A stretch of 64,000 nucleotides of DNA. Source: Planctomycetota bacterium. GTDB lineage: Bacteria > Planctomycetota > SZUA-567 > H5-PLA8. Below, piece after piece: positions 6,545-26,977 of the stretch (within the stretch, counting starts at the first letter, position 1; every line of letters starts with the position of its first letter). The stretch is taken from positions 64,001 through 128,000 of the forward strand of contig JBBRPR010000014.1 in assembly GCA_038227875.1 (NCBI GenBank), read 5' to 3'. The notes under the pieces were generated by a model, which was not told the DNA's origin, did no database searches, and saw nothing but the letters and a program-made list of their open reading frames with translations. A program made the position numbers and the translations under genes.

Positions 6545-6596
6545 CCGAAGGTCGAGCGCATTGCGATTTTGTGCGCTCTAAGTGGAGGAGCATGCC

Positions 6597-12884: not shown

Positions 12885-12934
12885 GGCCATTATTGACCAC
12901 GGTGCGCTGGGGTCAGCGCAGCGGTGACGGACAG

Positions 12935-12974
12935 GTCAGGAAGAAATTCTCGCAGCTGAGAATTTCTTCCTGAC
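12935..12974. repeat. Perfect 17-bp inverted repeat (terminator of the adhesin gene or operator/UAS of the hydrogenase operon)
   Basis: GTCAGGAAGAAATTCTC-gcagct-GAGAATTTCTTCCTGAC. Confidence 0.75.
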
Positions 12975-13067
12975 GTTGAGAACGTTAAAATTTATGCAGT
13001 GGGGATGGCTCAAATTACAAAGATCAAATCGAACTGGACTTGCATGTAATTTCAGGCACAAACACGG

Positions 13068-13139: not shown

Positions 13140-14285
13140 GTGTCGAACCTGTGTAAAGTCGGCGAGAACTGGGTGCTGTCGCGAGCGAAGCTCCAGGGCT
13201 TAATCGATGCGCTGACGGGCAGCGGGTACCAGGTGATCGCACCCACGGTTCGCGATCAGGCTATCGTCTACGACCGGATTTTCAACGAGCGCGAATTGCC
13301 GGTGGGCTTCACCGACGAACAGGACGGCGGGAAGTACCGCCTCAAGCGGCGCAGCGACGAGTCCGTGTTTGGATTCGCTGTCGGGCCGACCTCGTGGAAG
13401 CGGTTTTTGCATCCGCCCATTTTTAAACTCTGGGGCGCTGCGAAAACGGACGTCGGCATCGCCTTCAAACCCAACACGGATCCCGTGCCGAAGTACGCTT
13501 TTCTGGGCGTGCGGGCGTGCGAACTTCAGGCCATCGGTGTTCAAGATCGCGTGTTCATGACGCCGCCGTTTATCGATTCGGTTTACGCTCAGCGCCGCGA
13601 ACTGGCGTTGATCGTAGCGTTGAATTGTTCGATGTCGGGCGGGACGTGTTTTTGTGCGTCGATGAACACCGGACCGAAAGTCAGCTCCGGCTACGACCTG
13701 GCGCTGACGGAACTGCTCGGCGGCGGCGCGCACAACTTTCTGCTGCATGTCGGTTCGGAAAAAGGCGCGCAGATCGCGTCGCAGCTCGAACTGGAGCCGG
13801 CCACCGCCACGCACACCAACGCCGCGGACGCGGTCGTCGCGCACACGGCCAGCACGATGGGCCGTCAGCTGGATATCAGTGGCGTAAAGGAATTGCTGGC
13901 GTCGAATCTGGAGCACCCTCGCTGGGATGCCGTCGCGGCGCGCTGCGAATCGTGCGCAAATTGTACGATGGTTTGCCCGACCTGCTTCTGTACGACGGTT
14001 GAGGACGTGACCGATCTGGCCGGACAGAATACCGAGCACCAGCGGCGCTGGGATTCGTGCTTCACGTCTGATTTTTCGCACGTTCACGGCGGCAGCGTGC
14101 GGCAGAGCACCAAGTCGCGCTACCGCCAGTGGCTGACGCACAAGCTCTCGACGTGGCACGATCAGTTTGGAACTTCCGGCTGTGTGGGTTGCGGGCGCTG
14201 CATCACGTGGTGTCCGGTGGGCATTGATCTGACCGAGGAAGTGCGTGCCATTCGCGAAGAACCGAAAGCGGAGGCGAAAGCGTAA
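13140..14285 (+). CDS. hydB: Group 3b [NiFe]-hydrogenase (sulfhydrogenase) beta subunit, 4Fe-4S dicluster
   Basis: [14 protein letters not shown] and [29 protein letters not shown]. Confidence 0.9.
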
Positions 14286-14287
14286 TC

Positions 14288-14791
14288 ATGGAGACACTCG
14301 AGCCGATTCTTTCCGAACATCCATTTTTCAAAGACCTGCCGCAGTCGTATCTGCATCTGATTACGGGCTGCGCGTCGAATACCACGTTTGAGGAAGGGGA
14401 ATTCATTTTTCGGGAAGGACACGAAGCGAATAATTTCTATCTGCTCCGCCAGGGCCGCGTGGCGCTGGAAATTTCCGTTCCCTCGCACGCACCGATTGTG
14501 CTCAAGACGCTGGACGCCGGGGAGATCCTGGGCTGGTCGTGGCTGGTCTCTCCCTACCATTGGATGATGGACGCACGCGCGGTGGAATTGACGCGCGCCA
14601 TCGCACTGGACGGACCGTGCCTGCGCAAGAAATGCGAAGCCGACGGTGCTCTGGGCTACGATCTGCTGAAACGCTTTGCGCACGTCATGGAGCAGGAACT
14701 TCAGGCGGCGCGGTTGCAGTTGATTGATGTCTACGGCCGGCCCACGGCTCCGGCTGCGCCTGGCGCCATCGGAAAGGAGCGGAAAGCATGA
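14288..14791 (+). CDS. Stand-alone cyclic nucleotide-binding domain protein (no HTH)
   Basis: [29 protein letters not shown] cNMP fold; 167 aa. Confidence 0.85.
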
Positions 14792-15627
14792 GCTGCGTTT
14801 CCGATCCGATGCTGCCGAAGTCTTTCCGCGTCAGCCGCGTGAAGACCGAGACCGCCGATACGTTCACGCTGGATCTGCATCCGCAGGATGATGCCGCCAT
14901 GGGCATGGCTTTTGAGCCCGGGCAATTCAACATGCTCTACGTTTTCGGCCAGGGTGAAGTGCCGATTTCGATCAGCGGCGATCCGGCTCAACCGAACACG
15001 CTGGTACACACCATTCGCGCAGTCGGCGGCGTGACGGAAGCGCTGCAGCGTTGCCGCAAAGGTGACATGATCGGCGTACGTGGGCCGTTTGGTACGCCGT
15101 GGCCGGTCAGCGCCGCACACGGGAAGGACGTAATCATCGCCGCGGGCGGGCTGGGGCTCGCGCCGCTGCGCCCGGTGGTCTACCAGGTGTTGAACACGCG
15201 CGAAAAGTTCGGCAAGGTGACGCTGCTTTACGGAACGCGGTCGCCCGACGACATTTTGTTCGAAAAGGAATTGGAGAAGTGGCGCGGGCGCTTCGATTTC
15301 GACGTTCACGTTGCCGTGGCGACCGCGACGCCGAAGTGGCGCGGCATCGTCGGCTTCATCACGGCGTTGATTCCGAAAGCGAATTTCGACCCGGCCAACG
15401 CCGCGGTCTTCGCCTGCGGTCCGGAATTGATGATGCGCGTGACGGCCAACGAATTCATCAAGCGCGGCGTGCCGCTGAATCAGACCTTTGTTTCGATGGA
15501 ACGGAACATGAAATGCGCTGTGGGATTCTGTGGCCATTGCCAGCTTGGTCCCACCTTCATCTGCAAGGACGGGCCGGTCTTTCCGTACAACCGCATCCGC
15601 GATTTGATGCTCGTGAGGGAGCTCTGA
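14788..15627 (+). CDS. hydG: Group 3b hydrogenase gamma subunit (FAD/NAD(P)-binding, 2Fe-2S)
   Basis: [52 protein letters not shown]. Confidence 0.9.
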
Positions 15628-15632
15628 TCCCC

Positions 15633-16415
15633 ATGTCACGCGCTCATCGAAAACCCAAACTGGCGGTCTGGAAATTCGCTTCCTGCGACGGCTGCCAGCT
15701 TTCGCTGCTCGACTGCGAAGACGAACTGCTCGCGATTGCCGGCGAGATCGAGATCGCCAACTTTGTCGAAGCGTCGCGGGCCGTGGTGAAAGGTCCGTAC
15801 GACCTCTCGCTGGTGGAAGGCTCGATCACCACAGGGCACGACGAGGCGCGGATTCAGCACGTGCGGAAAATGTCGAAGCATCTGGTCACTATCGGCGCGT
15901 GTGCGACGGCCGGCGGGATTCAGGCGCTGCGCAATTTCAAGGATGTGAAGGAATTCACGTCGATTGTTTACGCCAAGCCGGAGTACATCGAAACGCTGGC
16001 GACGTCGACCCCGATCTCCGCTCACGTCCGCGTGGATTTCGAGCTGCGCGGCTGCCCGATCAACAAAACTCAATTGCTGGAAGTGCTGACCGCGTTTCTG
16101 CACGGCCGGCGGCCCAACATTCCCGACCAGAGCGTGTGCATGGAATGTAAATTGAAGGGCAACGTCTGCGTCATGGTCGCGCACGGTACGCCGTGCCTGG
16201 GACCGGTGACGCACTCGGGCTGCGGAGCGCTGTGCCCGTCGTACGACCGGGGTTGTTACGGCTGCTTCGGGCCGAAGGAGAACGCCAACACGGCCGCGCT
16301 GGGCACATGGCTGCACGACAAGGGCATGCCGCACGCCGACATCATGCGCAGCTTTCAGACCTACAACGCCGCCGCCACGCCGTTCCGAAAGGAAAGCGAA
16401 GCGCATGAAGAGTAG
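15633..16415 (+). CDS. hydD: Group 3b hydrogenase small (delta) subunit
   Basis: [45 protein letters not shown]; start at ATG 15633, not 15099. Confidence 0.9.
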
Positions 16416-17694
16416 AACGATCAAGGTCGATTATCTCGCGCGCGTGGAAGGCGAAGGCAGCCTGCGCGTCAAGATTAAAGACAATGTGCTGAAGGATGTG
16501 CAGCTCAAAATTTTCGAGCCGCCGCGCTTTTTCGAAGCGTTTCTGCGCGGGCGCACGTACATGGAAGCGCCGGACATCACCGCGCGCATCTGCGGCATCT
16601 GCCCGGTCGCATATCAAATGAGCGCCGTGCATGCGATCGAAAGTGCGTTCGACGTGAAGGTGCCGGAGCCGATCCGTCTACTGCGCCGTTTGCTGTACTG
16701 CGGCGAATGGGTTGAAAGTCATGCCTTGCACATTTACATGCTGCATGCGCCGGACTTTTTGAATTTTGAAGACGCCGTGCAGATGGCCAAGAAATTTCCG
16801 GAGATCGTCAAGCGCGGCCTGCAGTTGAAGAAGGCCGGCAACGCGATTGTGGCGCTGCTTGGCGGGCGCGAGATTCACCCAATCAATGTCCGCGTGGGCG
16901 GATTCTACCGCACGCCGTCGCGCAACGAATTGCTCACGCTGCTGGATTCGCTGAAGTGGGCGCGCGACGCGTCCGTCGAAACCGTGCGCTTTGCGGCGAC
17001 GCTGCCGTTTCCGGATTTCGAATGCGACTACGAATTTGTCTCGCTGAGGCACGAGAAGGATTATCCGTTCAGTGAAGGGAGCATTGTTTCCAACCGTGGC
17101 CTGAACATTGCGACAGATCAGTTCGATGCGCATTTTGCCGAGGAGCATGTCCAGCATTCCAACGCGCTCCACTGCTTGCTCAAAGAACGTGGTGCGTACT
17201 TTGTCGGGCCGATGGCACGGTACAATTTGAACTTCGATCGCCTCTCGAAGCTGGCGCGCGATGCCGCGATCGAGGCGAAGCTGGGGCCGGTTTGCAACAA
17301 TCCATTCAAGAGCATTATCATTCGGAGCGTGGAGCTGGTGCAGGTGTTTGATGAGGCGATTCGCATCGTGGAAGGCTACGAGCCGCCGTCCGCTCCGTTT
17401 GTGGCGATGACGCCGCGGAAATCCGTCGGCTACGCGGCCACCGAAGCGCCGCGCGGCATGCTCGTGCATCGCTATGCGCTCGACGATGCGGGGATCATCA
17501 CCGACGCGCGGATTGTGCCGCCGACGTCGCAGAATCAGAAGACCATCGAGAATGACCTGTGGCAGTTCGTGCCGCGAAATCTCCACCTCAATAACGCCGA
17601 TCTGACGTGGCGCTGCGAGCAGGCCATTCGAAATTACGATCCGTGTATTTCGTGTGCGACACATTTTCTCAAAATGGACGTGGAACGGAGCTGA
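16405..17694 (+). CDS. hydA: Group 3b [NiFe]-hydrogenase large (alpha) subunit
   Basis: RVEGE, L1 RICGICP, EAPRG, L2 DPCISCATH plus short cleavable tail FLKMDVERS. Confidence 0.95.
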
Positions 17695-17698
17695 CAAA

Positions 17699-20455
17699 AT
17701 GACTCATCAAGATACTCATCAAGATACTCATCAAGATACTCATCAAGATACTCATCAAGATACTCATCAACTACGCCGGGCGCTGGATCCTATTTTCACC
17801 CCGCGCAGCGTCGCGCTGATCGGCGCGACGGAAAAGCCCGGCAGTGTCGGGCGTACGATATTGCAGAACCTGACGGGGGCGAATTTCTCCGGGCCGATCT
17901 ATCCCGTGAATCCCAAGCGCGAGACCGTGTTGGGTTTCAAAGCGTATCCCTCGCTCACCAGCATCGGCAAGCCGGTCGATCTCGTCGTGATCGTGACGCC
18001 TGCAACCAACGTGCCGGCATTGATCGCCGAAAGCGTGGCGTGTGGCGTGCCCGGCGCGATCATTATCTCCGCGGGATTCAAGGAGACGGGGCCCGAGGGC
18101 GTGGAGCTCGAGCGCCAGGTTCGCGAGGCCGCGGCGGGGAAGATCCGCATCATCGGCCCCAATTGCCTGGGCGTGATGAACCCGCTCACGGGTTTAAACG
18201 CGACGTTCGCCAGCACCATCGCGCGGCCGGGCAATGTCGGATTCATCAGCCAGAGTGGCGCGCTCTGCACCGCGATTCTGGACTGGAGCCTGCGTGAAAA
18301 TGTCGGCTTCAGCGCGTTCGTCTCGACCGGCTCGATGCTCGACATCGGCTGGGGCGATCTGATCTACCATCTCGGCGACGATCCCAAAACCGAGAGCATC
18401 GTGATCTACATGGAGTCCGTCGGCGACGCGCGCAGTTTCATGTCCGCCGCGCGCGAAATCGCGCTGTCCAAGCCGATCATCGTGATCAAGGCCGGCCGGA
18501 CGCAGGCCGCCGCCAAGGCCGCCGCGTCGCACACGGGCGCGCTGGCCGGCAGCAACGATGTGCTCGACGCCGCGTTCCGCCGGTGCGGCGTGCTGCGCGT
18601 AAACAACATTTCAGAACTGTTCGCGCTGGCGGCGACGCTGGCCAAGCAGCCGCGCCCGCGCGGTCCGCGACTGACGGTGCTCACCAACGCCGGCGGTCCC
18701 GGAGTACTCGCGACCGATGCGCTGATCAGCGCCGGTGGAACTCTTTCCGAATTGTCGACGCAGACCTCCGCTCAGCTCAATGCGATTCTGCCGTCGCATT
18801 GGAGCCACTCCAATCCGGTCGACGTGCTGGGCGATGCCGATCCCGAGCGCTACGTGAAGGCCTTTGAAATCGCCGCGTGCGATGAGAACAGCGACGGCAC
18901 ATTGGTGATTTTGACGCCGCAGGCGATGACGAATCCCACCGGGTTTGCCGAACGGATGGCCGGTGCGAAGCGGCCGGCGGGCAAGCCGGTGCTCGCCAGT
19001 TGGATGGGCGGCGATGACGTGGCCCCTGGCATCGAACTGCTCAACCGGGCCGGCATCCCCACCTTCTCCTATCCCGATGAAGCGGCGGAAGCGTTCGCGT
19101 ACATGTGGCAGTACAGCGCCAATCTTCAGCGCTTGTATGAGACGCCTGAACTCAGCGCCGATGACCCGGCGGCGGCCAGTCCGCTGCCGCAGGTCGAATC
19201 ATTGTTGACCTCCGCGCGGCGCGACGGCCGTACGTTGCTGACGGAAGTCGAATCGAAACACCTGCTGCAGGCATACGGTCTGCCTGTGGTGGCGACGCAT
19301 CTGGCGAGAACGGTTGACGAGGCGGTGACGTTCGCGGACTCACTGCGCTACCCTGTGGTGCTGAAACTGTATTCGCACACGATCACGCACAAGACGGATG
19401 TCGGCGGCGTGCAGTTAAATCTCGCCAGTTCCGAGGACGTGCGCCGCGCATTTGCGCTGATCGAACACAACGTGGCGACGCATGCGGGCCGCGAGCATTT
19501 CCAGGGCGTGACGGTGCAGCGTATGGAGAAGCTGGAAGGCTACGAGATCATCCTGGGCAGCAGCATCGATCCGCAATTCGGACCGGTGTTGTTGTTTGGC
19601 CTCGGCGGACAGCTGGTGGAAGTGTTCAAGGACCGCGCGCTCGCGCTTCCGCCGCTGACGACAACGCTGGCGCGGCAGATGATGGAACGGACGAAAATTT
19701 TCACCGCGCTGCAGGGTGTGCGCGGGCGCAAGGCCGTGGACCTGGCGAAGCTGGAACGCATTCTCGTGCGCTTCAGCCAGCTGGTGGCCGAACAGCCGCG
19801 CATCAAGGAACTGGATATCAACCCGCTGCTCGTGTCACCCGACAACATCGTCGCGCTGGACGCGCGCGTGGTGTTGCACGATTGGGCCGTGAACGATGCC
19901 GCGCTGCCGCGCACGGCGATCCGGCCGTATCCGCGCAAGTACGTCTCGGAATTTAAAACGAGCAATGGTATCGCGGTGACGGTGCGGCCGATCCGGCCCG
20001 AAGACGAACCGCTGATCGTACAGTTTCATGAAACCTTGTCTGAGCAGACTGTGCGGCTGCGCTACCTGCACAACTTGAAATTCGACGAACGCGTTGCGCA
20101 CCAGCGGCTGATGCGCATCTGTTTCATCGATTACGACCGCGAGCTGTCGCTGGTCGCCGAGGTCAAGGATGCCGCGGGTCAGGCGCGGATTGTCGGCGTG
20201 GGCCGATTGAACAAACTGCACGGCGGAAATGCCGCGCACATTTATCTGGTGATCTCCGATGCGTTCCAAGGGAAGGGTATCGGGCGCGAATTGACAACGC
20301 GAATGCTGCAGGCTGCCCGGGACGAGAAGGTTCAAACCGTGTTCGCGGAACTTCTGCCCGATGCCGCGGGGATGCAGAAGTTGTGCCGGACGTTTGGATT
20401 CAGCATTGCCCCGGCTCAATCCGGCGGAAACTTGTATGCGGAATTGGCGTTATGA
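17699..20455 (+). CDS. Bifunctional NDP-forming acetate-CoA ligase (alpha+beta) / GNAT acetyltransferase (Pat/YfiQ-like architecture)
   Basis: CoA-binding domain (VALIGAT, PVNP, GPNCLG), [24 protein letters not shown]-grasp [14 protein letters not shown]-terminal GNAT (RPIRPED, FQGKGIG). Confidence 0.9.
17702..17770 (+). repeat. Perfect 12-bp tandem repeat ACTCATCAAGAT x5.75 (THQD repeat)
   Basis: Read directly; in frame right after the start codon of the ligase/GNAT gene. Confidence 0.95.
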
Positions 20456-20925
20456 ACGGCGCGCCGGACACGCTGGTGGTTGGCATCGGCAACGGATTTC
20501 GCGGCGATGATGCAGCCGGTCTGCTGGCGGCGCGGTTGCTCGCCCCCGGAGCGCCGGACGGCACGCGGGTGATCGAACACAACGGCGATGGCATGCTGCT
20601 GATGTCCGAATGGCAGCGTTTCCGGCGCGTGATCGTCATCGATGCGCTGCATGTCGCAGGCAATCCCGGCGAGATCCTGCGCTTTGATGCGAGTGAAAAA
20701 CCACTGGCGATCAAGGGCGGGCATTCGTCGACGCACGCGCTGAGTATTGGCGATACGATCGAGCTGGCGCGAACGCTGGGGGAACTTCCAGCGCAGATGA
20801 TCGTGTACGGGATCGTCGGAGCGACTTTTGAAATCGGCGCGGCTCCTACGGTTGCGGTCTCAGAGGCGGTGAAGGTGCTGGCCGCTCGCGTGCGCGAGGA
20901 ATTATTAGACGGAGGAAAAATTTGA
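20452..20925 (+). CDS. Hydrogenase maturation endopeptidase (HycI/HybD family)
   Basis: [26 protein letters not shown] overlap with the upstream stop. Confidence 0.9.
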
Positions 20926-21189
20926 ATGCATGAATTTTCACTGATCAACGATTTGATGCGCAAGATCGCGGCGATCGCCACGGAGCAGAAGGCCGAGAAG
21001 GTCACGAGCGTCACCGTGCGGTTGGGGGCGCTGGCGCATATTTCCGCCGACCATTTCCGCGAGCATTTTGTTCACGCCGCGCGGAATACCGTCGCCGATG
21101 GCGCGCAATTGAAAGTGCTGACGTCCACCGACGAGGCCGATCCGCGCGCGCAGGATATTCTTCTGGAGAGCGTGGACGTTGCGGACTGA
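20926..21189 (+). CDS. hypA: Short HypA nickel metallochaperone lacking the zinc finger
   Basis: N-terminal MHE, VTVRLGAL, TVADGAQL, ILLESVDV; no Cys residues; 87 aa. Confidence 0.8.
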   Translation: MHEFSLINDLMRKIAAIATEQKAEKVTSVTVRLGALAHISADHFREHFVHAARNTVADGAQLKVLTSTDEADPRAQDILLESVDVAD

Positions 21190-23458
21190 CGCGCCGGCCA
21201 CATCGACGCACGCTGAACGCCGCCGCATCAGCCTGACCGGCTGCGTGCAGGGCGTGGGTTTCCGTCCGTTTGTGTATCGTCTCGCGAAGCAACTGATGCT
21301 GAGCGGCTGGGTGAACAACACGCCGCAGGGCGTCGAGATCGAAATTGAAGGCGCGGCTGGGACGATCGATCTGTTTGAGAAACAACTTCAGGGCGAGGCG
21401 CCGGTGCACGCGCGGATTCACACGCTGAACAGTCAGCGCGTCGCGCCGCTTGGCGTTGTGGGGTTTGAAATTCGGGAAAGTGCGGCATCGGGAGTAATCG
21501 GCACCATTCCGCCTGACCTCGCCGTCTGTGCGGAGTGCGCGCGTGAGATTTTTGAGCCGCAGAATCGGCGCTATCGATATCCCTTCACCAATTGCACCCA
21601 CTGCGGGCCGCGCTTTTCGATATTGGAACGCGCGCCGTATGATCGCGCCAACACGTCGATGAAGTGTTTCGAGATGTGTGCGGCGTGTGCGGTGGAGTAC
21701 GGCGATCCGGCCGACCGACGATTTCATGCGCAGCCCAACGCGTGTCCGGCGTGCGGACCGCAGTTGCAGCTTTGGGACGCTGCCGGCCGCACTCTCGCGC
21801 AACGCGACGATGCGCTGAATGCAGCGGCGGCCGCGATCCAGGCGGGAAAAATCGTCGCGGTGAAGGGCATCGGTGGCTTTCAGTTGATGGTCGATGCCCG
21901 CTCGGATTCCGCGATCGCCCGCTTGCGGGAGCGGAAGCACCGCGACGCGAAGCCTTTCGCGCTGATGTTTCCGTTGCTTGATGCGATACGCGTGGAATGT
22001 GAGGTCGATACCCTTGAGGCTGAACTGCTGACCTCGGCGGCAGCGCCGATCGTGATTTTGCAGCGCAGTGCCGCTTCGCGGTTGCCGGAAATTTTAGCGC
22101 CGCGCCATCCGACGCTGGGCGCGATGCTTCCGTATTCGCCGCTTCATATCTTACTGCTCGATGCGCTGAAGGCGCCGGTCGTAGCCACGAGCGGCAATGT
22201 TTCCGACGAGCCGATTTGCATTGATGAACACGAGGCGCTGCGAAGGCTGGCGGGTCTCGCGGACTTATTTCTCGTTCACGACCGGCCGATTGTCCGTGCG
22301 GTGGACGACTCGGTGGTGCGCGTGTTTGCGGGCCGAGAGATGATGCTCCGTCGCGCGCGCGGTTACGCGCCGCTGCCGATTCGCGTAGGCTTCACGCTGC
22401 CTGGCATCACTGCGTTTGGCGCGCATGTGAAGAACAGCGTGGCAATTTCGCGCGGCGATGAAGTGATCGTGAGTCAGCATGTCGGTGATCTGGAGACGGC
22501 TGAAGCGCGCGCCGCACTGGAAACTACGCTGCGCGACCTGCCGCGGCTGTTTGAACACGAAGCGGAGCTTAGCGCCGCGGATGTGCATCCGGATTACGCG
22601 TCGACGCGGTTGGCGCTGCGCACCGGCGCGCCGGTGCTCGTGCAGCATCATTACGCGCACGTTCTTTCGTGCATGGCGGAGAACGAACTACAGGCGCCGG
22701 TGCTCGGCGTGGCCTGGGACGGCGCGGGATTGGGCCTCGACGGCGCAAGTTGGGGCGGGGAATTTCTCGCTATTAATGCCAGCGGTTTCGAGCGCGTCGC
22801 GCACTTGCGTCCGTTTCTGCTTCCCGGTGGTGATGCGGCCGCACGCGAGCCACGCCGCACTGCGCTGGGCGTGCTGTATGAGATTTTTGGCACTGAGGTG
22901 TTTGAGCGGACGGAGCTCGCACCCGTTCAAGCATTCAGCGCCCACGAACGAATGCAGTTGCTGACGGTGTTGTCCAGAAAAGTAAACACGCACGAAACCA
23001 CGAGCATTGGGCGGCTCTGCGACGCGGTGGCTGCGCTGCTGAAACTTTGCCCAGTCTCCTCGTTCGAAGGTCAGGCGGCGATGCTGCTCGAATTTGCCAT
23101 CGGCGAGGTTGCGACCGACGCGAGTTACGCGATGCCGCTGCGCGGTACGATCGTCGATTGGGAACCGGCGGTGCGGGAGATTCTCGCGGATCTGAGCGAT
23201 CACGTCTCTGTCGCGTTGATCGCGGCAAAATTTCACAACGCGCTGGTGGAAGCAATTATTTCGGTTGCGCGAGCCAGCGGGCAAAGCGCGGTTGCGTTGA
23301 GCGGCGGTTGCTTTCAAAACAAGTACCTGACAGAACGCGCTGTGGCGCGCTTGCGTGCATCCGGGTTCACGCCGTACTGGCATCGGCGGGTGCCACCCAA
23401 CGATGGCGGCATCGCCTTGGGTCAGATTCTCGCGGCCGCGCGGTCGCTGGAGACTTAA
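21179..23458 (+). CDS. hypF: Carbamoyltransferase HypF
   Basis: VQGVGFRPF, CxxC zinc fingers, KGIGGF, HDRPI, DVHPDY, QHHYAH, PPNDGGIALGQ. Confidence 0.95.
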   Translation: MRTDAPATSTHAERRRISLTGCVQGVGFRPFVYRLAKQLMLSGWVNNTPQGVEIEIEGAAGTIDLFEKQLQGEAPVHARIHTLNSQRVAPLGVVGFEIRESAASGVIGTIPPDLAVCAECAREIFEPQNRRYRYPFTNCTHCGPRFSILERAPYDRANTSMKCFEMCAACAVEYGDPADRRFHAQPNACPACGPQLQLWDAAGRTLAQRDDALNAAAAAIQAGKIVAVKGIGGFQLMVDARSDSAIARLRERKHRDAKPFALMFPLLDAIRVECEVDTLEAELLTSAAAPIVILQRSAASRLPEILAPRHPTLGAMLPYSPLHILLLDALKAPVVATSGNVSDEPICIDEHEALRRLAGLADLFLVHDRPIVRAVDDSVVRVFAGREMMLRRARGYAPLPIRVGFTLPGITAFGAHVKNSVAISRGDEVIVSQHVGDLETAEARAALETTLRDLPRLFEHEAELSAADVHPDYASTRLALRTGAPVLVQHHYAHVLSCMAENELQAPVLGVAWDGAGLGLDGASWGGEFLAINASGFERVAHLRPFLLPGGDAAAREPRRTALGVLYEIFGTEVFERTELAPVQAFSAHERMQLLTVLSRKVNTHETTSIGRLCDAVAALLKLCPVSSFEGQAAMLLEFAIGEVATDASYAMPLRGTIVDWEPAVREILADLSDHVSVALIAAKFHNALVEAIISVARASGQSAVALSGGCFQNKYLTERAVARLRASGFTPYWHRRVPPNDGGIALGQILAAARSLET

Positions 23459-23460
23459 AA

Positions 23461-23715
23461 ATGTGCCTCGCCATTCCCGGGCAGATCCACAGCGTCTCCG
23501 GCGACGATCCGCTGACGCGATTGGGTAAAGTGTCGTTTGGCGGCATCGTCAAAGAGATCAATCTCGCTTTCGTGCCGGAAGCGAACGTGGGCGATTTCGT
23601 GCTGGTCCACGTCGGCTTTGCGATCTCGCGCATCGACGAAGCCGAAGCGCGCCGCACCTTTGAGTATTTGAAGCAGGCCGGGGAAGCCGAGGAGCTTCAG
23701 GCGGATGATTCATGA
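23461..23715 (+). CDS. hypC: Hydrogenase chaperone HypC
   Basis: [20 protein letters not shown]; start at ATG 23461. Confidence 0.95.
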
Positions 23716-24818
23716 AGTACCTCGACGAATTCCGCGACCAGGCTGCGATCGAAGCGTGCGCGAAAGCGATTCGCGCCGTGGTGCGGCAGCCGTGGACGAT
23801 CATGGAAGTCTGCGGCGGCCAGACGCACAGCATCGTCAAGCACGGGCTCGACCGACTGCTGCCGGAATCCGTGACGCTGGTGCACGGTCCGGGTTGTCCG
23901 GTCTGCGTGACGCCGGTGGGCATCATCGACAAGGCGCTGGATTTGGCGGCGCGCAAAGATGTGATTTTCTGTTCGTTCGGCGACATGCTCCGCGTGCCCG
24001 GTACGCGCGGCGATTTGTTCTCGGTCAAAGCGGGCGGTGGTGACGTGCGGATGGTCTATTCGCCGATGGACGCGTTGGCGCTGGCGAAACGGCAGCCGGA
24101 AAAGGAGATCGTTTTCTTCGCCGTGGGTTTCGAAACGACCGCGCCGGCCAACGCGATGGCCGCGTATCAGGCGCGCCAGCAGAACGTTCGCAACTTTTCG
24201 CTGCTGGTGTCGCACGTGCTGGTGCCGCCAGCGATGGAAGCGATCTTGAGCGCCCCGAAAAATCGCGTGCAGGGATTTCTCGCGCCGGGGCATGTCTGCG
24301 CCATTGTCGGGTATGCGGAGTACGAAGAACTGGCGCGGCGCTTCCGCGTTCCCATCGTCGTCACGGGATTCGAGCCGGTCGATATTCTGCAGGGAATATT
24401 GCTGTGTCTGACGCAACTCGAAGAGAGTCGCAGCGTCGTTGAGAATCAGTACACGCGTTTTGTGCGTCGCGATGGCAATGAGACGGCGTTGCGGTTGCTG
24501 CGCGAGGTCTTCACGGTCGTGCCGCGAAAGTGGCGCGGCGTGGGTGAGATTTCCGCGAGCGGACTGGCACTGTCCGATGCATTTGCGGACTTCGACGCCG
24601 AGAAGCGCTTCGGACTTTCGCCGAACTCCGCCGACGAATCGACGGAGTGCATCAGCGGGGAAATTCTGCAGGGGTTGAAGAAGCCGCCCGACTGCCCTGC
24701 ATTCGGTTCGCGTTGCACGCCCGATCAGCCGCTTGGCGCGACGATGGTCTCTTCGGAAGGCGCCTGCGCGGCGTATTTTCGCTACAGGCGGTTTCAGCAG
24801 CAGAGGGCCGATGCGTGA
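23712..24818 (+). CDS. hypD: Hydrogenase formation protein HypD
   Basis: [33 protein letters not shown]. Confidence 0.95.
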
Positions 24819-25867
24819 CCACACCCGACGTACCGTTCGGCTCATGCCCGCTGCCGCACTCCAACGCCTCGTCGATCATGCTCGGGCATGGCGGCGGCGG
24901 CACCCTGACGCAGTCGCTAATCGAAACCGTGTTTCTTCCAGCGTTCGCGAACTCTGCGCTTTCAGCGCGGCATGACAGCGCAGTGCTGGAAGTTAACGGC
25001 CAGCGCCTTGCGTTCACCACCGATTCGTATGTGGTCCGGCCGCTGTTTTTTCCCGGCGGCGACATTGGCAAACTCGCCGTCACGGGCACGATCAACGATC
25101 TGGCGATGGCCGGCGCGCGGCCGCTGTACTTGAGTGCCGGGTTCATCATCGAAGAAGGCTTCGCCAAATCCGATCTCGCGAAAATCGTGGCGTCGATGCA
25201 GGCTGCCGCGACTGAAGCCGGCGTGCAGATCGTGACCGGCGACACAAAGGTCGTCGACAAGGGCAAAGGCGACGGAGTGTTCATCAACACGGCGGGAATT
25301 GGCGTGATCGAAACGCCGCTGACGATTGCGCCCGGCAGCGCCAGGGCGGGGGATGCGATCATTCTCAGCGGGGACATCGGCCGTCACGGCATCGCGATCA
25401 TGGCGGTGCGCGAGGGGCTCGAATTCGAGAGCACCATCGAAAGCGATTGCGCTTCGTTGCACGCTCCGGTGGCGGCGTTGTTGCGCGCAGGCGTGGACGT
25501 GCATTGTCTTCGCGACCTGACGCGCGGCGGCCTGGCGTCGGCGCTCAACGAGATCGCACAAGCTGCGGCGGTGGGCGTGGAGATCACGGAGCGGGAAATC
25601 CCTGTCGATACACAAGTTCGCGGTGCCTGCGAGATTCTCGGGCTCGATCCGCTTTATGTCGCCAACGAAGGACGCTTCGTCGCCTTCGTGGCGGCTGGAG
25701 ATGCGGAGCGTGCAGTGAAAATTCTGCGCGGCGAACCGGTCAGCTTTGACGCACGAATGATTGGACAGACTGTTACCGGCACGGCGCAAGTTGTCCTGCG
25801 CACGGCGATCGGGGGGAATCGTGTCGTCGACATGCTCAGCGGCGAGCAACTTCCGAGAATCTGTTAG
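24815..25867 (+). CDS. hypE: Carbamoyl dehydratase HypE
   Basis: [30 protein letters not shown]-terminal LPRIC; GTG start overlapping the hypD stop. Confidence 0.95.
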
Positions 25868-25873
25868 GCGCCG

Positions 25874-26977
25874 TCAATCGCCCAGGCAGATTCCGAGCTC
25901 GCGGGCGGTCAGCACGGTGTCGGAATTGACGTCGACGCACTTTCGTCCTCCGATGGTGGACTCCAGAGATGTCGATGTCATCCCGGGCGGCTGGAATGAA
26001 ACCATCTGCCCCCAGCGTCCGGCTTCCGCCAGCCGCACGGCAGCCGTGCCGTAGCGGAGGCCCAGGAGCCGGTCGTAGGTCGTCGGAGATCCACCCCGCT
26101 GGATGTGGCCCAGGACCAGAGCGCGCGTGTCGGCGCCGGTGCGTTGTTCGATCTGCGTGGCGACGTACTGACCTGCTCCGCCCAGCAGTGGTTCGTGGCC
26201 CTTGACGGTTTTCTTCTGCAGAATTTCCGCCCCTTCGCGTTCCCGGGCGCCTTCCGCAACGACCACGATGGCCGAGGCTCGTCCGGATTTGCGCCGTTCG
26301 TTGAGAAACGCGGCGACGTTTTTCATCGTGTAAGGAATTTCGGGAATCAAAATCACATCGGCGGAAGCGGAGATGCCCGCGTGGAGCGCGATCCAGCCGG
26401 CGTGGCGGCCCATGACCTCAATGACCATGGTGCGGCCGTGCGCCTGGGCGGTGGTCTGCAGCTTGTCGATGCAATCCGTCGCGGTGGCGACGGCGGTATC
26501 GAAGCCAAACGTCCGCTCGGTGCCGAGCAGATCGTTGTCGATGGTTTTGGGAACGCCGATCACCTGCACACCCATGCGGTACAAACGGTAGGCGATGCTC
26601 ATGGATCCGTCGCCACCGATGGCGATCACGCCATCGATCTTCTGACGCTTGAGTTCGCTCACGACAATTTCCGCGGCAAGGGCCCGCCGCGTGGAGCCAG
26701 GAAAGTGTGTGCGGAACTCAAAGGGATTGGCGCAATTGGTGGTGCCCAGGATTGTACCGCCGAGACCCGCGATGCTGCGTACAGTCTCGCGAACCAGCGG
26801 AATGCACGGTTCGCCGGCAATGATTCCGCAATAGCCGTCGCGAATGCCAACCACTTCCAAACCGCGATTGAGCGCGGATTGCGTTGCGGCGCGGATCACT
26901 GCGTTCAGTCCGGGTGCATCGCCGCCGCCCGTGGTGAGGGCCAGACGCTTCAAGGGGTGTCGTGACGTTTGGGACAT
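25874..26977 (-). CDS. pfkA: 6-phosphofructokinase (PfkA family, probably ATP-dependent)
   Basis: TGGGDAPGLNA, GGTILGT, IGGDGS, PKTIDND, EVMGR, LGHIQRGG. Confidence 0.9.
   Translation of the reverse strand: MSQTSRHPLKRLALTTGGGDAPGLNAVIRAATQSALNRGLEVVGIRDGYCGIIAGEPCIPLVRETVRSIAGLGGTILGTTNCANPFEFRTHFPGSTRRALAAEIVVSELKRQKIDGVIAIGGDGSMSIAYRLYRMGVQVIGVPKTIDNDLLGTERTFGFDTAVATATDCIDKLQTTAQAHGRTMVIEVMGRHAGWIALHAGISASADVILIPEIPYTMKNVAAFLNERRKSGRASAIVVVAEGAREREGAEILQKKTVKGHEPLLGGAGQYVATQIEQRTGADTRALVLGHIQRGGSPTTYDRLLGLRYGTAAVRLAEAGRWGQMVSFQPPGMTSTSLESTIGGRKCVDVNSDTVLTARELGICLGD

What the first reader, a model, noticed from the sequence alone, without database searches (positions are those of the whole stretch)
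13140..26977. Group 3b hydrogenase operon embeds an acetate-CoA ligase/GNAT: candidate H2 + acetate fermentation module
Seen: the ligase/GNAT starts 4 nt after the hydA stop and overlaps the maturation protease by ATGA, so it sits inside a tightly coupled hydB-cNMP-hydG-hydD-hydA-ligase-protease-hypA-hypFCDE unit; pfkA converges on hypE. The ligase keeps both histidine motifs ([13 protein letters not shown]). Known: group 3b enzymes couple NAD(P)H to H2; ADP-forming acetyl-CoA synthetases use these two His to make ATP; Pat-type GNATs acetylate lysines. Inference: one transcript may co-express cofactor reoxidation and acetate-forming substrate-level phosphorylation, or the GNAT may tune the hydrogenase/Hyp proteins according to acetyl-CoA. 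I do not know of a description of this arrangement.
Basis: partly seen in the sequence, partly recalled or inferred. Interest (0 to 1): 0.78.

Follow-up and report, generated by a model that had tools for sequence, protein, structure and literature searches.

The report
Acetyl-CoA enzyme inside hydrogenase operon
A soil or sediment acidobacterium has slipped a gene for a probable ATP-making acetyl-CoA enzyme (fused to an acetyltransferase domain) into the middle of its hydrogen-producing enzyme operon, and relatives of that gene sit beside hydrogenase and fermentation genes in several other bacterial phyla.

Summary
Twelve + strand genes at 13140-25867 (hydB, cNMP, hydG, hydD, hydA, ACD-GNAT, protease, hypA, hypF, hypC, hypD, hypE) are packed with gaps of -11 to +41 nt. 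The 918-aa ACD-GNAT gene starts 4 nt after the hydA stop and overlaps the protease gene by ATGA.

The embedding is specific to this lineage. None of 16 homologous acidobacterial operons has a gene there. The closest relative keeps hydA and hypF 826 nt apart, with its ACD-GNAT on another contig.

The wider association is real. Hydrogenase or hyp genes (3b, 3c-like, 3d) lie within 10 kb in 16 of 80 genome loci and 10 of 80 metagenome loci of this family. AdhE, PFOR or an alcohol dehydrogenase flank others. On the family tree the link changes state at least 8 times.

Unlike E. coli PatZ, all 75 family members keep the ACD catalytic motifs (SHTG, HK). In the window's copy the GNAT catalytic Glu is His, and the GNAT part has diverged faster than the ACD part.

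Best reading (about 0.55): an active acetate- and ATP-forming ACD is co-expressed with an H2-evolving hydrogenase. No RNA data were available and no activity was tested.

This scan noted a similar nested gene in another acidobacterium (e1-3886166). My literature searches found no description.

The parts
13140..14285 (+). hydB, the Fe-S beta subunit of a group 3b-type [NiFe]-hydrogenase (381 aa)
   Evidence: Fer4_22 E 1e-32. Best NCBIfam match is sulfhyd_HydB, 144 bits, far below its equivalog cut-off of 750.
14288..14791 (+). Stand-alone cyclic-nucleotide-binding-domain protein (167 aa), a regular member of acidobacterial 3b operons
   Evidence: cNMP_binding E 9.7e-13. A homolog lies in 15 of 15 related operons that cover this position.
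14788..15627 (+). hydG, the FAD/NAD(P)-binding gamma subunit (279 aa)
   Evidence: NAD_binding_1 and DHODB_Fe-S_bind. NF006220 at 212.8 bits and sulfhyd_HydG at 177.8 bits, both below their cut-offs.
15624..16415 (+). hydD, the small (delta) subunit. The start is approximate.
   Evidence: Oxidored_q6 E 1.5e-22. ShyD and HydD about 168 bits.
16405..17694 (+). hydA, the [NiFe] large subunit (429 aa), with a C-terminal extension after DPCISCATH
   Evidence: NiFeSe_Hases. ShyA 274 bits and HydA 225 bits are the best matches, both below their cut-offs. The sequence reads [10 protein letters not shown] and [18 protein letters not shown].
17699..20455 (+). ACD-GNAT: an NDP-forming acyl-CoA synthetase (alpha-beta fused) with a C-terminal GNAT domain (918 aa, P0001)
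   Evidence: Pfam domain set. TIGR02717 scores 538.6 bits against a cut-off of 567.15. PDB 9it0 'Protein acetyltransferase' E 5.6e-147 over residues 26-903; 8wzu (ADP-forming 4-hydroxybutyrate--CoA ligase) E 1.2e-138. Catalytic motifs are kept.
17702..17770 (+). Perfect 12-nt tandem repeat, 5.8 copies, encoding (T-H-Q-D)n at the N-terminus of ACD-GNAT
   Evidence: TRF score 138 with 100% matches. Unique in the genome. Absent from all 75 homologs, which have a PAHDVLR..QPL-like N-terminus. Public contigs break inside it.
20452..20925 (+). Hydrogenase maturation endopeptidase (157 aa)
   Evidence: HycI E 1.4e-9. TIGR00072 E 2.4e-30, above its cut-off. ATGA overlap with ACD-GNAT.
20926..21189 (+). 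Short HypA (87 aa): N-terminal Ni-binding domain only, no Cys, no Zn domain
   Evidence: The HypA profile is matched at positions 1-66 of 112 only. The sequence holds no Cys. Homologs of the same length lie in 9 related operons.
21179..23458 (+). hypF, carbamoyltransferase
   Evidence: TIGR00143 795.7 bits, above its cut-off.
23470..23715 (+). hypC. The start is approximate.
   Evidence: HupF_HypC E 4.3e-22. TIGR00074 69 bits, above its cut-off.
23712..24818 (+). hypD
   Evidence: TIGR00075 492 bits.
24860..25867 (+). hypE. The start is approximate; the open frame begins at 24647.
   Evidence: TIGR02124 461 bits, matching residues 77-406 of the long frame.
25874..26977 (-). pfkA-like phosphofructokinase, convergent on hypE. 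Not shown to belong to the unit.
   Evidence: PFK E 1e-97. NF002872 359 bits, above its cut-off. No pfkA homolog in that position in the 16 related operons.

Best explanation
The region is one tightly packed operon for a cytosolic, NAD(P)-linked group 3b-type [NiFe]-hydrogenase (HydB, a cNMP-domain protein, HydG, HydD, HydA) and its maturation set (endopeptidase, short HypA, HypF, HypC, HypD, HypE). In this lineage alone, a gene for an ACD-GNAT protein has been placed between hydA and the endopeptidase gene and has become translationally coupled on both sides.

The protein is most likely a working ADP-forming acyl-CoA synthetase: acetyl-CoA + ADP + Pi gives acetate + ATP + CoA, through the phospho-His of the SHTG loop. 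When oxygen runs out, one transcript would then supply both parts of a survival fermentation. The hydrogenase disposes of NAD(P)H as H2, and the ACD harvests ATP from acetyl-CoA, which the genome's own PFOR can make.

The GNAT domain is auxiliary. It may sense acetyl-CoA or hold the oligomer together, as the ACD-like part does in PatZ. It may still acetylate something, but in this copy it looks weakened.

Shown: the anatomy, the conserved catalytic motifs, the recurrent linkage and the co-occurrence.
Inferred: co-transcription, the substrate, the direction of the reaction, and the role of the GNAT domain.
For: 1. Packing. The gaps are 4 nt and -4 nt at the two junctions and -11 to +41 nt across all 12 genes. 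Promoter-like and terminator-like sites are at shuffle level: 4 found against 2.5+/-1.9, and 20 against 15.5+/-4.3.

2. Catalytic equipment. GPNCLG, SQSGA, YME, SHTG and THK are kept in the window's protein and are invariant or nearly so in 75 of 75 family ORFs. E. coli PatZ has a gap at S-H. The literature ascribes the inactivity of the Pat ACD-like domain to that missing His (PMC3195501 passage; PMC8556138 passages). The solved ADP-forming ligase 8wzu aligns over residues 30-714 with the same motifs.

3. Neighbours of the family elsewhere.
- Of 80 genome-contig loci, 16 hold hydrogenase or hyp genes within 10 kb.
- These comprise HoxEFUYH in 10 cyanobacterial loci and in Anaerolineae L025; an HdrB/HdrA/MvhD/small/large cluster in 2 Verrucomicrobia; and hox or hyp genes in Terriglobia and L038.
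- AdhE lies divergently 230-520 bp away in 5 Planktothrix/Oscillatoriales loci. PFOR lies within 0.8-4.5 kb in 5 loci. A Zn-ADH lies within about 0.6 kb in 3 loci.
- Of 80 metagenome loci, 10 hold hydrogenase or hyp genes. Three are ACD-GNAT-hypFCDE units. One (L182) is a 3b operon divergent from a protease...ACD-GNAT unit.
- In the same family, G014 has the gene convergent on hypE of its 3b operon.

4. Independence. On the family tree the linked members fall in separate clades, and the linked state changes at least 8 times. The count rests on 17 linked rows, 33 unlinked rows with at least 5 kb on both sides, and 27 rows not scored.

5. Co-occurrence. In the window's taxonomic family, full-length ACD-GNAT was found in 5 of 17 genomes, all 5 with HypF. 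Of the other 12, 3 have HypF. Genera g7 and g10 are split the same way for both genes.

6. Relative constraint. The ACD part keeps 65% mean identity to the family while the GNAT part keeps 46%. The ratio of 0.71 is 7th lowest of 76 (median 0.81). The catalytic Glu of PatZ (E809) is His here.

7. The genome holds PFOR (C59), so acetyl-CoA can be made anaerobically.

8. Context from a preprint (passages read): transcripts of group 3b and 3d hydrogenases and of acdAB rise together in anoxic soils.
Against: - No expression data. No RNA run holds this DNA, so co-transcription is inferred from spacing alone.
- No enzyme of this ACD-GNAT orthogroup has been assayed, to my knowledge (recalled; none turned up).
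- The embedded position is absent from 16 of 16 homologous operons and from G015, whose ACD-GNAT is the window's sister.
- In a sample of 301 genomes of the phylum, 45 hold both a HydA-like and an ACD-like gene by my reading of the two tables. Only G000 and G053 have them within 10 kb, and the G053 ACD has no GNAT.
- His-retaining ACD-GNATs at 43-45% identity occur in two 99%-complete single-contig genomes (G041, G082) in which no HypF was found, so the wider class does not need a hydrogenase.
- The genome also has acetate kinase, so ACD is not its only route to acetate.
- It also has an AMP-forming Acs and two sirtuins, the usual partners of a Pat-type regulator.
- TIGR02717 scores just under its cut-off (538.6 against 567.15), and the best full-length NCBIfam match is a 4-hydroxybutyrate--CoA ligase, far under its cut-off. 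The acyl substrate is therefore not settled.
- The family includes enzymes with other chemistry, for example the DMSP lyase 7cm9.
Confidence: 0.55

Rival explanations
1. Pat-like regulator. The protein is chiefly a lysine acetyltransferase whose ACD-like part senses acetyl-CoA, as in PatZ/SePat. It acetylates Acs, or the Hyd/Hyp proteins, to match hydrogen metabolism to the acetyl-CoA pool.
For: - The best solved relatives over the whole length are 9it0 and 9isq, 'Protein acetyltransferase' (E 5.6e-147, residues 26-903).
- The acetyl-CoA-binding motif QGKGIGRE is kept, and 64 of 75 family members keep the catalytic Glu.
- The genome holds an AMP-forming Acs and two sirtuins.
- In L126 an AMP-forming Acs lies about 1.5 kb beyond the ACD-GNAT-hypFCDE unit.
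Against: - The feature that makes the Pat N-terminal part a mere sensor, loss of the catalytic His, is not present here or in any of 75 relatives (PMC3195501).
- In this copy the PatZ catalytic Glu is His, and the GNAT part is among the fastest-evolving of the family.
- The ACD part is the better conserved half throughout the family.
Confidence: 0.2
2. Passenger gene. The insertion between hydA and the protease gene is a neutral rearrangement. In G014 the gene lies just beyond hypE, so it may have moved a few kilobases. It has no functional tie to the hydrogenase.
For: - The position is unique among 16 homologous operons.
- Three of the 4 same-family relatives with the gene have no hyd or hyp gene within about 9 kb of it.
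- Physical linkage is rare in the phylum sample.
Against: - Both junctions are shaped for coupled translation: a GGAG 8 nt before the ATG, a 4-nt gap, and an ATGA overlap.
- GC3 of 0.776 lies within the operon's range of 0.69-0.80.
- Linkage to hydrogenase or hyp genes recurs in at least 6 separate clades and with three hydrogenase subgroups.
- The gene co-occurs with HypF in the family.
Confidence: 0.12
3. Maturation helper. The ACD-GNAT serves [NiFe]-cofactor assembly. It might make or handle an acyl-CoA such as formyl- or acetyl-CoA as a source of the CO ligand under anoxia, or it might acetylate a Hyp protein.
For: The gene's immediate partners are often maturation genes rather than structural ones:
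- the protease gene (window; L182);
- hypF-hypC-hypD-hypE on the same strand, 120-145 bp downstream (L124-L126);
- hypF-hypC (L038) and hypF (L085, L091).

The operon's HypA lacks the Zn domain. From recall, not from a call here: HypX makes CO from formyl-CoA in aerobes, and the anaerobic source is unknown.
Against: - Neighbours such as AdhE, PFOR and ADH point to acetyl-CoA fermentation.
- His-retaining ACD-GNATs occur in complete genomes where no HypF was found (G041, G082).
- Fifteen of 16 related 3b operons mature without a linked copy.
- No chemistry of this kind is known for ACD or GNAT folds.
Confidence: 0.06
4. Reverse direction. The ACD activates acetate (or another acid) at the cost of ATP while the hydrogenase oxidises H2 to give NAD(P)H, giving a mixotrophic acetate-assimilation unit.
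For: From established knowledge, not tested here: ACD reactions are reversible, and group 3b and 3d enzymes are bidirectional. The best full-length NCBIfam matches are acid-activating ligases of the same fold, 4-hydroxybutyrate and 3-hydroxypropionate.
Against: - The genome already has an AMP-forming Acs above its cut-off.
- Neighbours elsewhere (PFOR, AdhE, ADH, Hox) are those of fermentation.
- The scores to the hydroxyacid ligases are under half of their cut-offs.
Confidence: 0.07

Closest known systems
E. coli PatZ / Salmonella Pat (type I GNAT lysine acetyltransferases; PDB 9it0, 9isq)
   Same: Same architecture over the whole length: CoA-binding, ligase-CoA and ATP-grasp parts followed by a C-terminal GNAT. 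E 5.6e-147 over residues 26-903. The acetyl-CoA-binding motif is kept.
   Different: - PatZ lacks the S-H of the phospho-His loop and has S for C in GPNCLG and A for G in SQSGA. The window's protein and 75 of 75 relatives keep the ACD versions.
- Identity to PatZ is 36% in the ACD part and 28% in the GNAT part.
- PatZ E809 is His here.
- patZ in E. coli K-12 lies among unrelated genes.
ADP-forming acyl-CoA synthetases (ACD): Ca. Korarchaeum ACD1 (4xyl), Nitrosopumilus 4-hydroxybutyrate--CoA ligase (8wzu), Pyrococcus PH0766-type (2csu)
   Same: The domain set and catalytic motifs match. 8wzu aligns over residues 30-714 (E 1.2e-138), and the 4xyl alpha and beta chains cover 29-474 and 501-726.
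   Different: - Those enzymes have no GNAT domain.
- The archaeal ones are split into alpha and beta chains.
- The substrate of the window's enzyme is not known.
Group 3b [NiFe]-hydrogenases (Pyrococcus sulfhydrogenases HydBGDA/ShyBCDA; Mycobacterium smegmatis Hyh)
   Same: Four subunit types with the same Pfam domains, and the best NCBIfam matches for all four. A role in hypoxic disposal of NAD(P)H as H2 is described for Hyh (preprint 10.64898/2026.10.24.761498, passage).
   Different: - Scores are far below the archaeal equivalog cut-offs.
- The acidobacterial operons carry an extra cNMP-domain gene and a short HypA.
- Only this one carries ACD-GNAT inside.
NCBI's 'bifunctional acetate--CoA ligase family protein/GNAT family N-acetyltransferase' proteins (Nostoc, Anabaena, Planktothrix and many MAGs)
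   Same: This is the family of the window's protein. Identity is 58-66% over nearly the full length, in many phyla.
   Different: - The window's copy has a unique (THQD)n N-terminus, a His at the GNAT catalytic Glu position, and a position inside a 3b operon.
- No closer relative than 66% identity was found.

Membership tests
Group 3b [NiFe]-hydrogenase | Four subunits: large (alpha), small (delta), Fe-S (beta) and FAD/NAD(P) (gamma) | tested here: met
   Pfam NiFeSe_Hases, Oxidored_q6, Fer4_22, and NAD_binding_1 plus DHODB_Fe-S_bind. The best NCBIfam matches are the four sulfhydrogenase subunits.
Group 3b [NiFe]-hydrogenase | Scores above the curated equivalog cut-offs for sulfhydrogenase subunits | tested here: not met
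   ShyA 274 bits against 700; HydB 144 against 750; HydG 178 against 650; ShyD 169 against 460. The models are built for archaeal enzymes. The subgroup call rests on best match and architecture, not on a formal classifier, which I could not run.
Group 3b [NiFe]-hydrogenase | N- and C-terminal CxxC pairs that bind Ni-Fe, and a C-terminal extension removed by an endopeptidase | tested here: met
   [10 protein letters not shown] and DPCISCATH followed by FLKMDVERS in the translation. An endopeptidase gene is in the operon. The motif definitions are recalled.
Group 3b [NiFe]-hydrogenase | NAD(P)H-coupled H2 evolution or uptake | not testable with these tools
   Needs enzyme assay.
NDP-forming acyl-CoA synthetase (ACD) | Domains CoA_binding, Succ_CoA_lig, Ligase_CoA and ATP-grasp_5 | tested here: met
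   All four are above their Pfam cut-offs.
NDP-forming acyl-CoA synthetase (ACD) | Catalytic His of the phospho-His loop (SHTG), and the His of the ATP-grasp part (HK) | tested here: met
   [10 protein letters not shown] at residues 276-285 and THKTDVGGV at 563-571. Both are invariant in 75 of 75 relatives, and S-H is absent from PatZ.
NDP-forming acyl-CoA synthetase (ACD) | Score above the acetate--CoA ligase alpha model cut-off (TIGR02717) | tested here: not met
   538.6 bits against 567.15, a near miss.
NDP-forming acyl-CoA synthetase (ACD) | Acyl-CoA + ADP + Pi to acid + ATP activity | not testable with these tools
   Needs purified protein.
Pat/PatZ type I protein lysine acetyltransferase | N-terminal ACD-like part plus a C-terminal GNAT in one chain of about 900 aa | tested here: met
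   Alignment to 9it0 over residues 26-903, E 5.6e-147.
Pat/PatZ type I protein lysine acetyltransferase | An ACD-like part that is catalytically dead through loss of the critical His (as the literature defines type I/II) | tested here: not met
   The His is kept. The definition comes from passages of PMC3195501 and PMC8556138.
Pat/PatZ type I protein lysine acetyltransferase | GNAT catalytic Glu (PatZ E809) and the Q/RxxGxG/A acetyl-CoA motif | tested here: inconclusive
   The motif QGKGIGRE is present. The Glu is His in the window's protein, while it is Glu in 64 of 75 relatives. His could still act as a base. The role of E809 comes from a passage of PMC12184503.
Pat/PatZ type I protein lysine acetyltransferase | Acetylation of Acs Lys609 or of other proteins | not testable with these tools
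   Needs assay. Acs and two sirtuins exist in the genome.
Hyp maturation set | HypA, HypB, HypC, HypD, HypE and HypF plus a specific endopeptidase | tested here: inconclusive
   HypF, HypC, HypD, HypE and the protease are above their cut-offs. HypA is present only as an 87-aa N-domain (43.9 bits against a cut-off of 88.1). There is no HypB in the operon, but one lies on contig C125 next to a second hypF.

The most novel reading that the evidence does not exclude
The ACD-GNAT family is not only a fermentation enzyme. It is also a helper of [NiFe]-hydrogenase assembly in the absence of oxygen. Its recurrent place beside the endopeptidase, hypF and hypCDE genes would reflect delivery of an acyl-CoA-derived group to the Hyp machinery, for instance the CO ligand, whose anaerobic origin is unknown (recalled). 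Alternatively it could reflect acetyl-CoA-dependent control of that machinery.
Probability: 0.06. Interest if true: 0.9.

Novelty: new variant of a known kind. Interest (0 to 1): 0.55.

Why it matters
Textbook accounts of bacterial Pat-type proteins treat the ACD-like part as a dead sensor. Here a very large, widely spread family (at least 8000 database proteins at E <= 1e-50) keeps every ACD catalytic motif. It also sits repeatedly beside H2-producing hydrogenases, their maturation genes, PFOR and AdhE, in cyanobacteria, Acidobacteriota, Verrucomicrobiota, Chloroflexota and others.

If these proteins are active, three things follow:
- They are a missed ATP-yielding step in the hypoxic H2/acetate fermentation that lets 'aerobic' soil bacteria and bloom-forming cyanobacteria survive anoxia.
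- Metabolic reconstructions that look only for Pta-Ack or split AcdAB undercount that capacity.
- The fusion gives a direct handle on what a GNAT domain does on a working ACD.

The window's operon is the most explicit case, with the gene translationally coupled inside the hydrogenase operon.

Tried and rejected
- RNA evidence. The look-up of sequencing runs listed no RNA holder, so there is nothing on expression either way.
- Bridging the junctions with independent samples. Runs X2-X4 hold only short pieces (47-402 nt) of near-identical DNA. None spans the hydA/ACD junction. X3 record 22 reaches only 23 nt past the ACD stop, under the 31-nt rule.
- Compositional sign of a recent insertion. There is none: GC3 is 0.776 against 0.69-0.80 for the neighbours.
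- Internal promoter or terminator. The scans are at shuffle level. One 9-of-12 promoter-like site lies at 17292-17321 inside hydA and is not distinguishable from chance.
- pfkA as part of the module. No pfkA homolog lies in that position in the 16 related operons. One distant case exists in L040 and a weak one in L214. I did not pursue this.
- Three metagenome loci (L173, L179, L183) were flagged only by a 26-27% hydG-like (FNR-family) match. I did not count them as hydrogenase-linked.
- The 155-aa protein just upstream of ACD-GNAT in 15 cyanobacterial loci as a possible HoxW protease. It has no Pfam match at E <= 0.001, so this was not supported.
- Literature. The following searches found no description of the arrangement:
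  - 'ADP-forming' + GNAT + hydrogenase: 1 unrelated paper.
  - 'group 3b' + hydrogenase + acetyltransferase: 29 papers; listing read, one preprint searched.
  - 'bidirectional hydrogenase' + cyanobacteria + ADP-forming: 1 unrelated paper.
  - The NCBI product name: 0 papers.
  - hox + cyanobacteri + acyl-CoA synthetase + NDP-forming: 0 papers.
  - A six-term hox/adhE/fermentation search: 9 papers, one of them searched.
  - Weisse et al. 2016 (ACD1 structure) is not held. Subscription journals and bioRxiv supplements were not searchable.
- I ran no structure prediction and no complex prediction. The full-length sequence match to solved PatZ and ACD structures made a fold search unnecessary, and I claim no protein-protein binding.

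Full report
**1. What is there**

The window (G000, contig C14, 64001-128000) carries twelve + strand genes between 13140 and 25867, and a convergent pfkA.

Pfam and NCBIfam identify them as follows:
- HydB: Fer4_22.
- A stand-alone 167-aa cNMP-binding protein.
- HydG: NAD_binding_1 plus DHODB_Fe-S_bind.
- HydD: Oxidored_q6.
- HydA: NiFeSe_Hases.
- A 918-aa protein with CoA_binding_2, Succ_CoA_lig, Ligase_CoA_2, ATP-grasp_5 and GNAT domains.
- A maturation endopeptidase: TIGR00072, E 2.4e-30.
- An 87-aa HypA.
- HypF, HypC, HypD and HypE.

The four structural subunits have the Pyrococcus sulfhydrogenase subunits as best NCBIfam matches, but far under those models' cut-offs. 'Group 3b' therefore rests on architecture and best match, not on a classifier.

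HydA reads [10 protein letters not shown] near its N-terminus and ends [18 protein letters not shown]. It carries the extension that the endopeptidase removes (the role of the motif is recalled).

- hydA TGA at 17692-17694, then 4 nt, then ATG at 17699, with GGAG 8 nt upstream.
- ACD-GNAT TGA at 20453-20455, overlapping the protease ATG at 20452.

All gaps in the unit run from -11 to +41 nt. Promoter-like and terminator-like matches are at the level of shuffled sequence.

**2. Is the join real?**

The first 69 nt after the ATG codon of ACD-GNAT are a perfect 12-nt repeat of 5.8 copies. In the run that probably gave this assembly, one public contig (15,269 nt, depth 12) covers hydA and ends at 17731. 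Another (4,476 nt, depth 13.1) begins at 17741 and runs through ACD-GNAT and the protease gene to beyond 21189.

Both contigs stop 30 nt into the repeat. That is what a 31-mer graph does at a repeat longer than its word (inference). The repeat unit occurs nowhere else in the 9.3-Mb genome. I take the join as sound and the copy number as uncertain. Three other runs hold short near-identical pieces of hydA, ACD-GNAT and the protease gene, but none bridges the first junction.

**3. What the inserted protein is**

Its best solved relatives are 'Protein acetyltransferase' 9it0 and 9isq, which are 886 and 877 aa (E 5.6e-147, residues 26-903). These are the E. coli PatZ structures described in PMC12184503 (passages read). 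Next comes the ADP-forming 4-hydroxybutyrate--CoA ligase 8wzu (E 1.2e-138, residues 30-714).

The literature defines type I/II GNATs by an ACD-like part that is inactive because the critical His is missing (PMC3195501 passage; PMC8556138 passages).

I aligned the window's protein, E. coli PatZ (taken from the K-12 record) and 75 family ORFs of more than 800 aa from the fetched loci. GPNCLG, SQSGA, YME, SHTG and THK are invariant or nearly so in all 75 and in the window's protein. PatZ has a gap at S-H and substitutions in the other motifs. So this is not the PatZ kind. The ACD half has everything an ACD needs, as far as sequence can show.

The GNAT half keeps the acetyl-CoA motif (QGKGIGRE). 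The Glu that PMC12184503 calls the key catalytic residue (E809) is Glu in 64 of 75 relatives. It is His in the window's protein and in G015, and Ser in G014.

Mean identity to the family is 65% for the ACD part and 46% for the GNAT part. The ratio of 0.71 is the 7th lowest of 76 (median 0.81). The rows with the lowest ratios are largely those without the Glu. In this lineage the GNAT half seems to be under weaker constraint than the ACD half.

NCBI names the family 'bifunctional acetate--CoA ligase family protein/GNAT family N-acetyltransferase'. The nearest database protein is 66% identical.

**4. Is the embedded layout conserved? No.**

Full-length relatives (59-65% identity) occur in four genomes of the same taxonomic family: G015, G008, G014 and G004.
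- Only G014 has hyd/hyp genes nearby. There the operon runs hydG-hydD-hydA-protease-hypA-hypF-hypC-hypD-hypE, and ACD-GNAT lies just beyond, convergent on hypE, where the window has pfkA.
- G015 has the ACD-GNAT that is the window's sister on the tree. It has a 73%-identical hydA and a hypF 826 nt apart on contig C170, and its ACD-GNAT on C179.

I then fetched 15 further acidobacterial operons found with HydA, plus the G014 locus.
- All follow hydB-cNMP-hydG-hydD-hydA-(protease-hypA)-hypF-hypC-hypD-hypE, or a variant with cNMP first.
- The cNMP gene is present in 15 of 15.
- None of the 16 has ACD-GNAT between hydA and the next gene.

In a sample of 301 genomes of the phylum, 76 have a HydA-like gene (E <= 1e-40) and 124 an ACD-like gene (E <= 1e-100). 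By my reading of the two tables, 45 have both. Only G000 and G053 have the two within 10 kb. In G053 they are 3.3 kb apart, the ACD has no GNAT, and the HydA-like gene is 35% identical. In G246 they are 20 kb apart.

**5. Is there a wider link? Yes.**

*Genome collection.* A scan for relatives of the protein returned 80 loci (58-66% identity) from many phyla. Sixteen of the 80 hold homologs of the window's hyd or hyp genes within the flank of up to 10 kb.

A crude neighbour clustering followed by Pfam shows what they are. It used greedy longest ORFs, with no proper gene caller, over 84 loci:
- Ten cyanobacterial loci read Usp-HoxE-HoxF-HoxU-DUF3122-HoxY-CBS/CP12-HoxH-...-ACD-GNAT.
- Anaerolineae L025 reads HoxFUYH-ACD-GNAT.
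- Two Verrucomicrobia read ACD-GNAT, then a CCG (HdrB-like) protein, an HdrA-like protein, MvhD, and the small and large subunits, all on one strand.
- Terriglobia L085 and L091, and L038, carry hox or hyp genes.

The next commonest neighbours are fermentation genes:
- AdhE lies divergently 230-520 bp away in 5 Planktothrix/Oscillatoriales loci.
- PFOR lies within 0.8-4.5 kb in 5 loci, among them G008 of the window's own family.
- A Zn-ADH lies within about 0.6 kb in 3 loci.

By my union of these lists, 29 of the 84 loci carry at least one such partner. Many loci are short, so this is a lower bound.

*Metagenome collection.* The scan gave 10 of 80 loci with hydrogenase or hyp genes. Some of these loci are the same organisms as the MAGs above; for example, L130's proteins equal L041's.
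- Three are ACD-GNAT-hypF-hypC-hypD-hypE units, with gaps of 120-145 bp and unrelated genes upstream.
- L182 is a 3b operon on one strand, with a protease...ACD-GNAT unit diverging from it.

*Expected background.* A hydrogenase cluster takes up well under 1% of a genome, so a random 20-kb stretch should rarely hold one. This is a rough estimate and an inference, not a computed control.

*Independence.* On a FastTree of the 77 proteins, the linked members sit in separate clades: the window; G014; Anaerolineae with Verrucomicrobia; Terriglobia; L038; Nostocales. The fewest changes of the linked state is 8, counted on 17 linked rows, 33 unlinked rows with at least 5 kb on both sides, and 27 rows left unscored for short flanks. 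The deep forks are poorly supported and several rows have long branches, so I use the tree only for this count.

**6. Co-occurrence**

In the window's family (17 genomes with G000), full-length ACD-GNAT was found in 5, and all 5 have HypF. Of the other 12, 3 have HypF: G005, plus G001 and G011 as fragments at contig ends. Genera g7 and g10 are split in the same way for both genes. These are kin and mostly incomplete genomes (74-95% complete), so this is suggestive and not a test.

In the phylum sample, 18 of 301 genomes hold a full-length ACD-GNAT and 8 of the 18 hold HypF. The six with at least 57% identity all do, though G266's match is partial. Two single-contig, 99%-complete genomes (G041, G082) have His-retaining ACD-GNATs of 45% and 43% identity and no HypF match. 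The wider class therefore does not depend on a hydrogenase.

**7. Reading**

The simplest account is a fermentation pairing.
- Group 3b and 3d enzymes dispose of NAD(P)H as H2 in hypoxia. This is shown for M. smegmatis Hyh according to the introduction of preprint 10.64898/2026.10.24.761498. The same preprint reports that 3b and 3d hydrogenase transcripts and acdAB transcripts rise in anoxic soil (passages read).
- ACD turns acetyl-CoA into acetate and ATP.
- The genome has PFOR.
- Against exclusivity, it also has acetate kinase.

The Pat-like reading stays open. The genome has an AMP-forming Acs and two sirtuins, and most family members keep the GNAT Glu.

The frequent partnership with maturation genes rather than structural genes is not explained by the fermentation reading alone. 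I keep a maturation role as the boldest reading, at low odds.

**8. Novelty**

The parts are known kinds. The protein family is annotated but, as far as my searches and recall go, not characterised. Seven literature searches found no account of ACD-GNAT genes beside hydrogenase genes.

I confirmed the latter. I could not examine that genome.

G017 is marked unpublished.

Noticed in passing
window 17702-17770: A perfect 12-nt tandem repeat (5.8 copies) gives the ACD-GNAT an N-terminal (T-H-Q-D)n tract with six His spaced four residues apart. It is unique to this genome's copy; homologs have a PAHDVLR..QPL-like motif there. It could be a slippage product of variable length or a metal-binding tail, in an operon whose HypA lacks the Zn domain and which has no HypB.
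   Followed up: partly
window 20926-21189: HypA is only 87 aa. It starts MHE, has no Cys at all, and matches profile positions 1-66 of 112. Homologs of the same length follow the protease gene in 9 related acidobacterial operons, so this is a conserved Zn-domain-less HypA and not a truncation.
   Followed up: partly
window 14288-14791: A stand-alone cNMP-binding-domain protein (no HTH) sits between hydB and hydG. A homolog is present in 15 of 15 related 3b operons, before hydB in four of them. It may be a fifth subunit or a ligand sensor of these hydrogenases.
   Followed up: partly
L033, L035, L036, L040, L046-L049, L051, L053, L055, L057, L062, L070, L088 (about 50-280 bp upstream of ACD-GNAT): A conserved protein of about 155 aa with no Pfam match lies immediately upstream of ACD-GNAT, on the same strand, in 15 cyanobacterial loci.
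   Followed up: no
G003:C944, G007:C66, G024:C7, G011:C235: A split form. An ACD of about 700-800 aa (43% identity, residues 28-728) is followed about 1.3 kb downstream by a 650-770-aa open frame whose end matches the GNAT part (25-30% identity).
   Followed up: no
L041 9914-19268 and L032: In two Verrucomicrobia, ACD-GNAT heads a same-strand run of a CCG (HdrB-like) protein, an HdrA-like flavoprotein, MvhD, and the small and large [NiFe] subunits. This is a group 3c-like Hdr-Mvh unit in a bacterium.
   Followed up: partly
L126 19000-20964: An AMP-forming acetyl-CoA synthetase lies about 1.5 kb beyond hypE of an ACD-GNAT-hypFCDE unit, on the opposite strand. It is the classical Pat substrate, sitting next to a Pat-like gene.
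   Followed up: no
window 12925-12975 and 6582-12884: A long inverted repeat (arms of about 20 nt, AGGTCAGGAAGAAATTCTC...GAGAATTTCTTCCTGAC) follows a 2100-aa ORF. It precedes the roughly 250-nt non-coding stretch upstream of hydB and is probably the terminator that sets the operon's left border.
   Followed up: no
G000 contig C125 2799-6142: A second hypF (769.8 bits) with a hypB (265.7 bits) lies on another contig. The genome therefore has a second maturation set, and perhaps a second hydrogenase.
   Followed up: no
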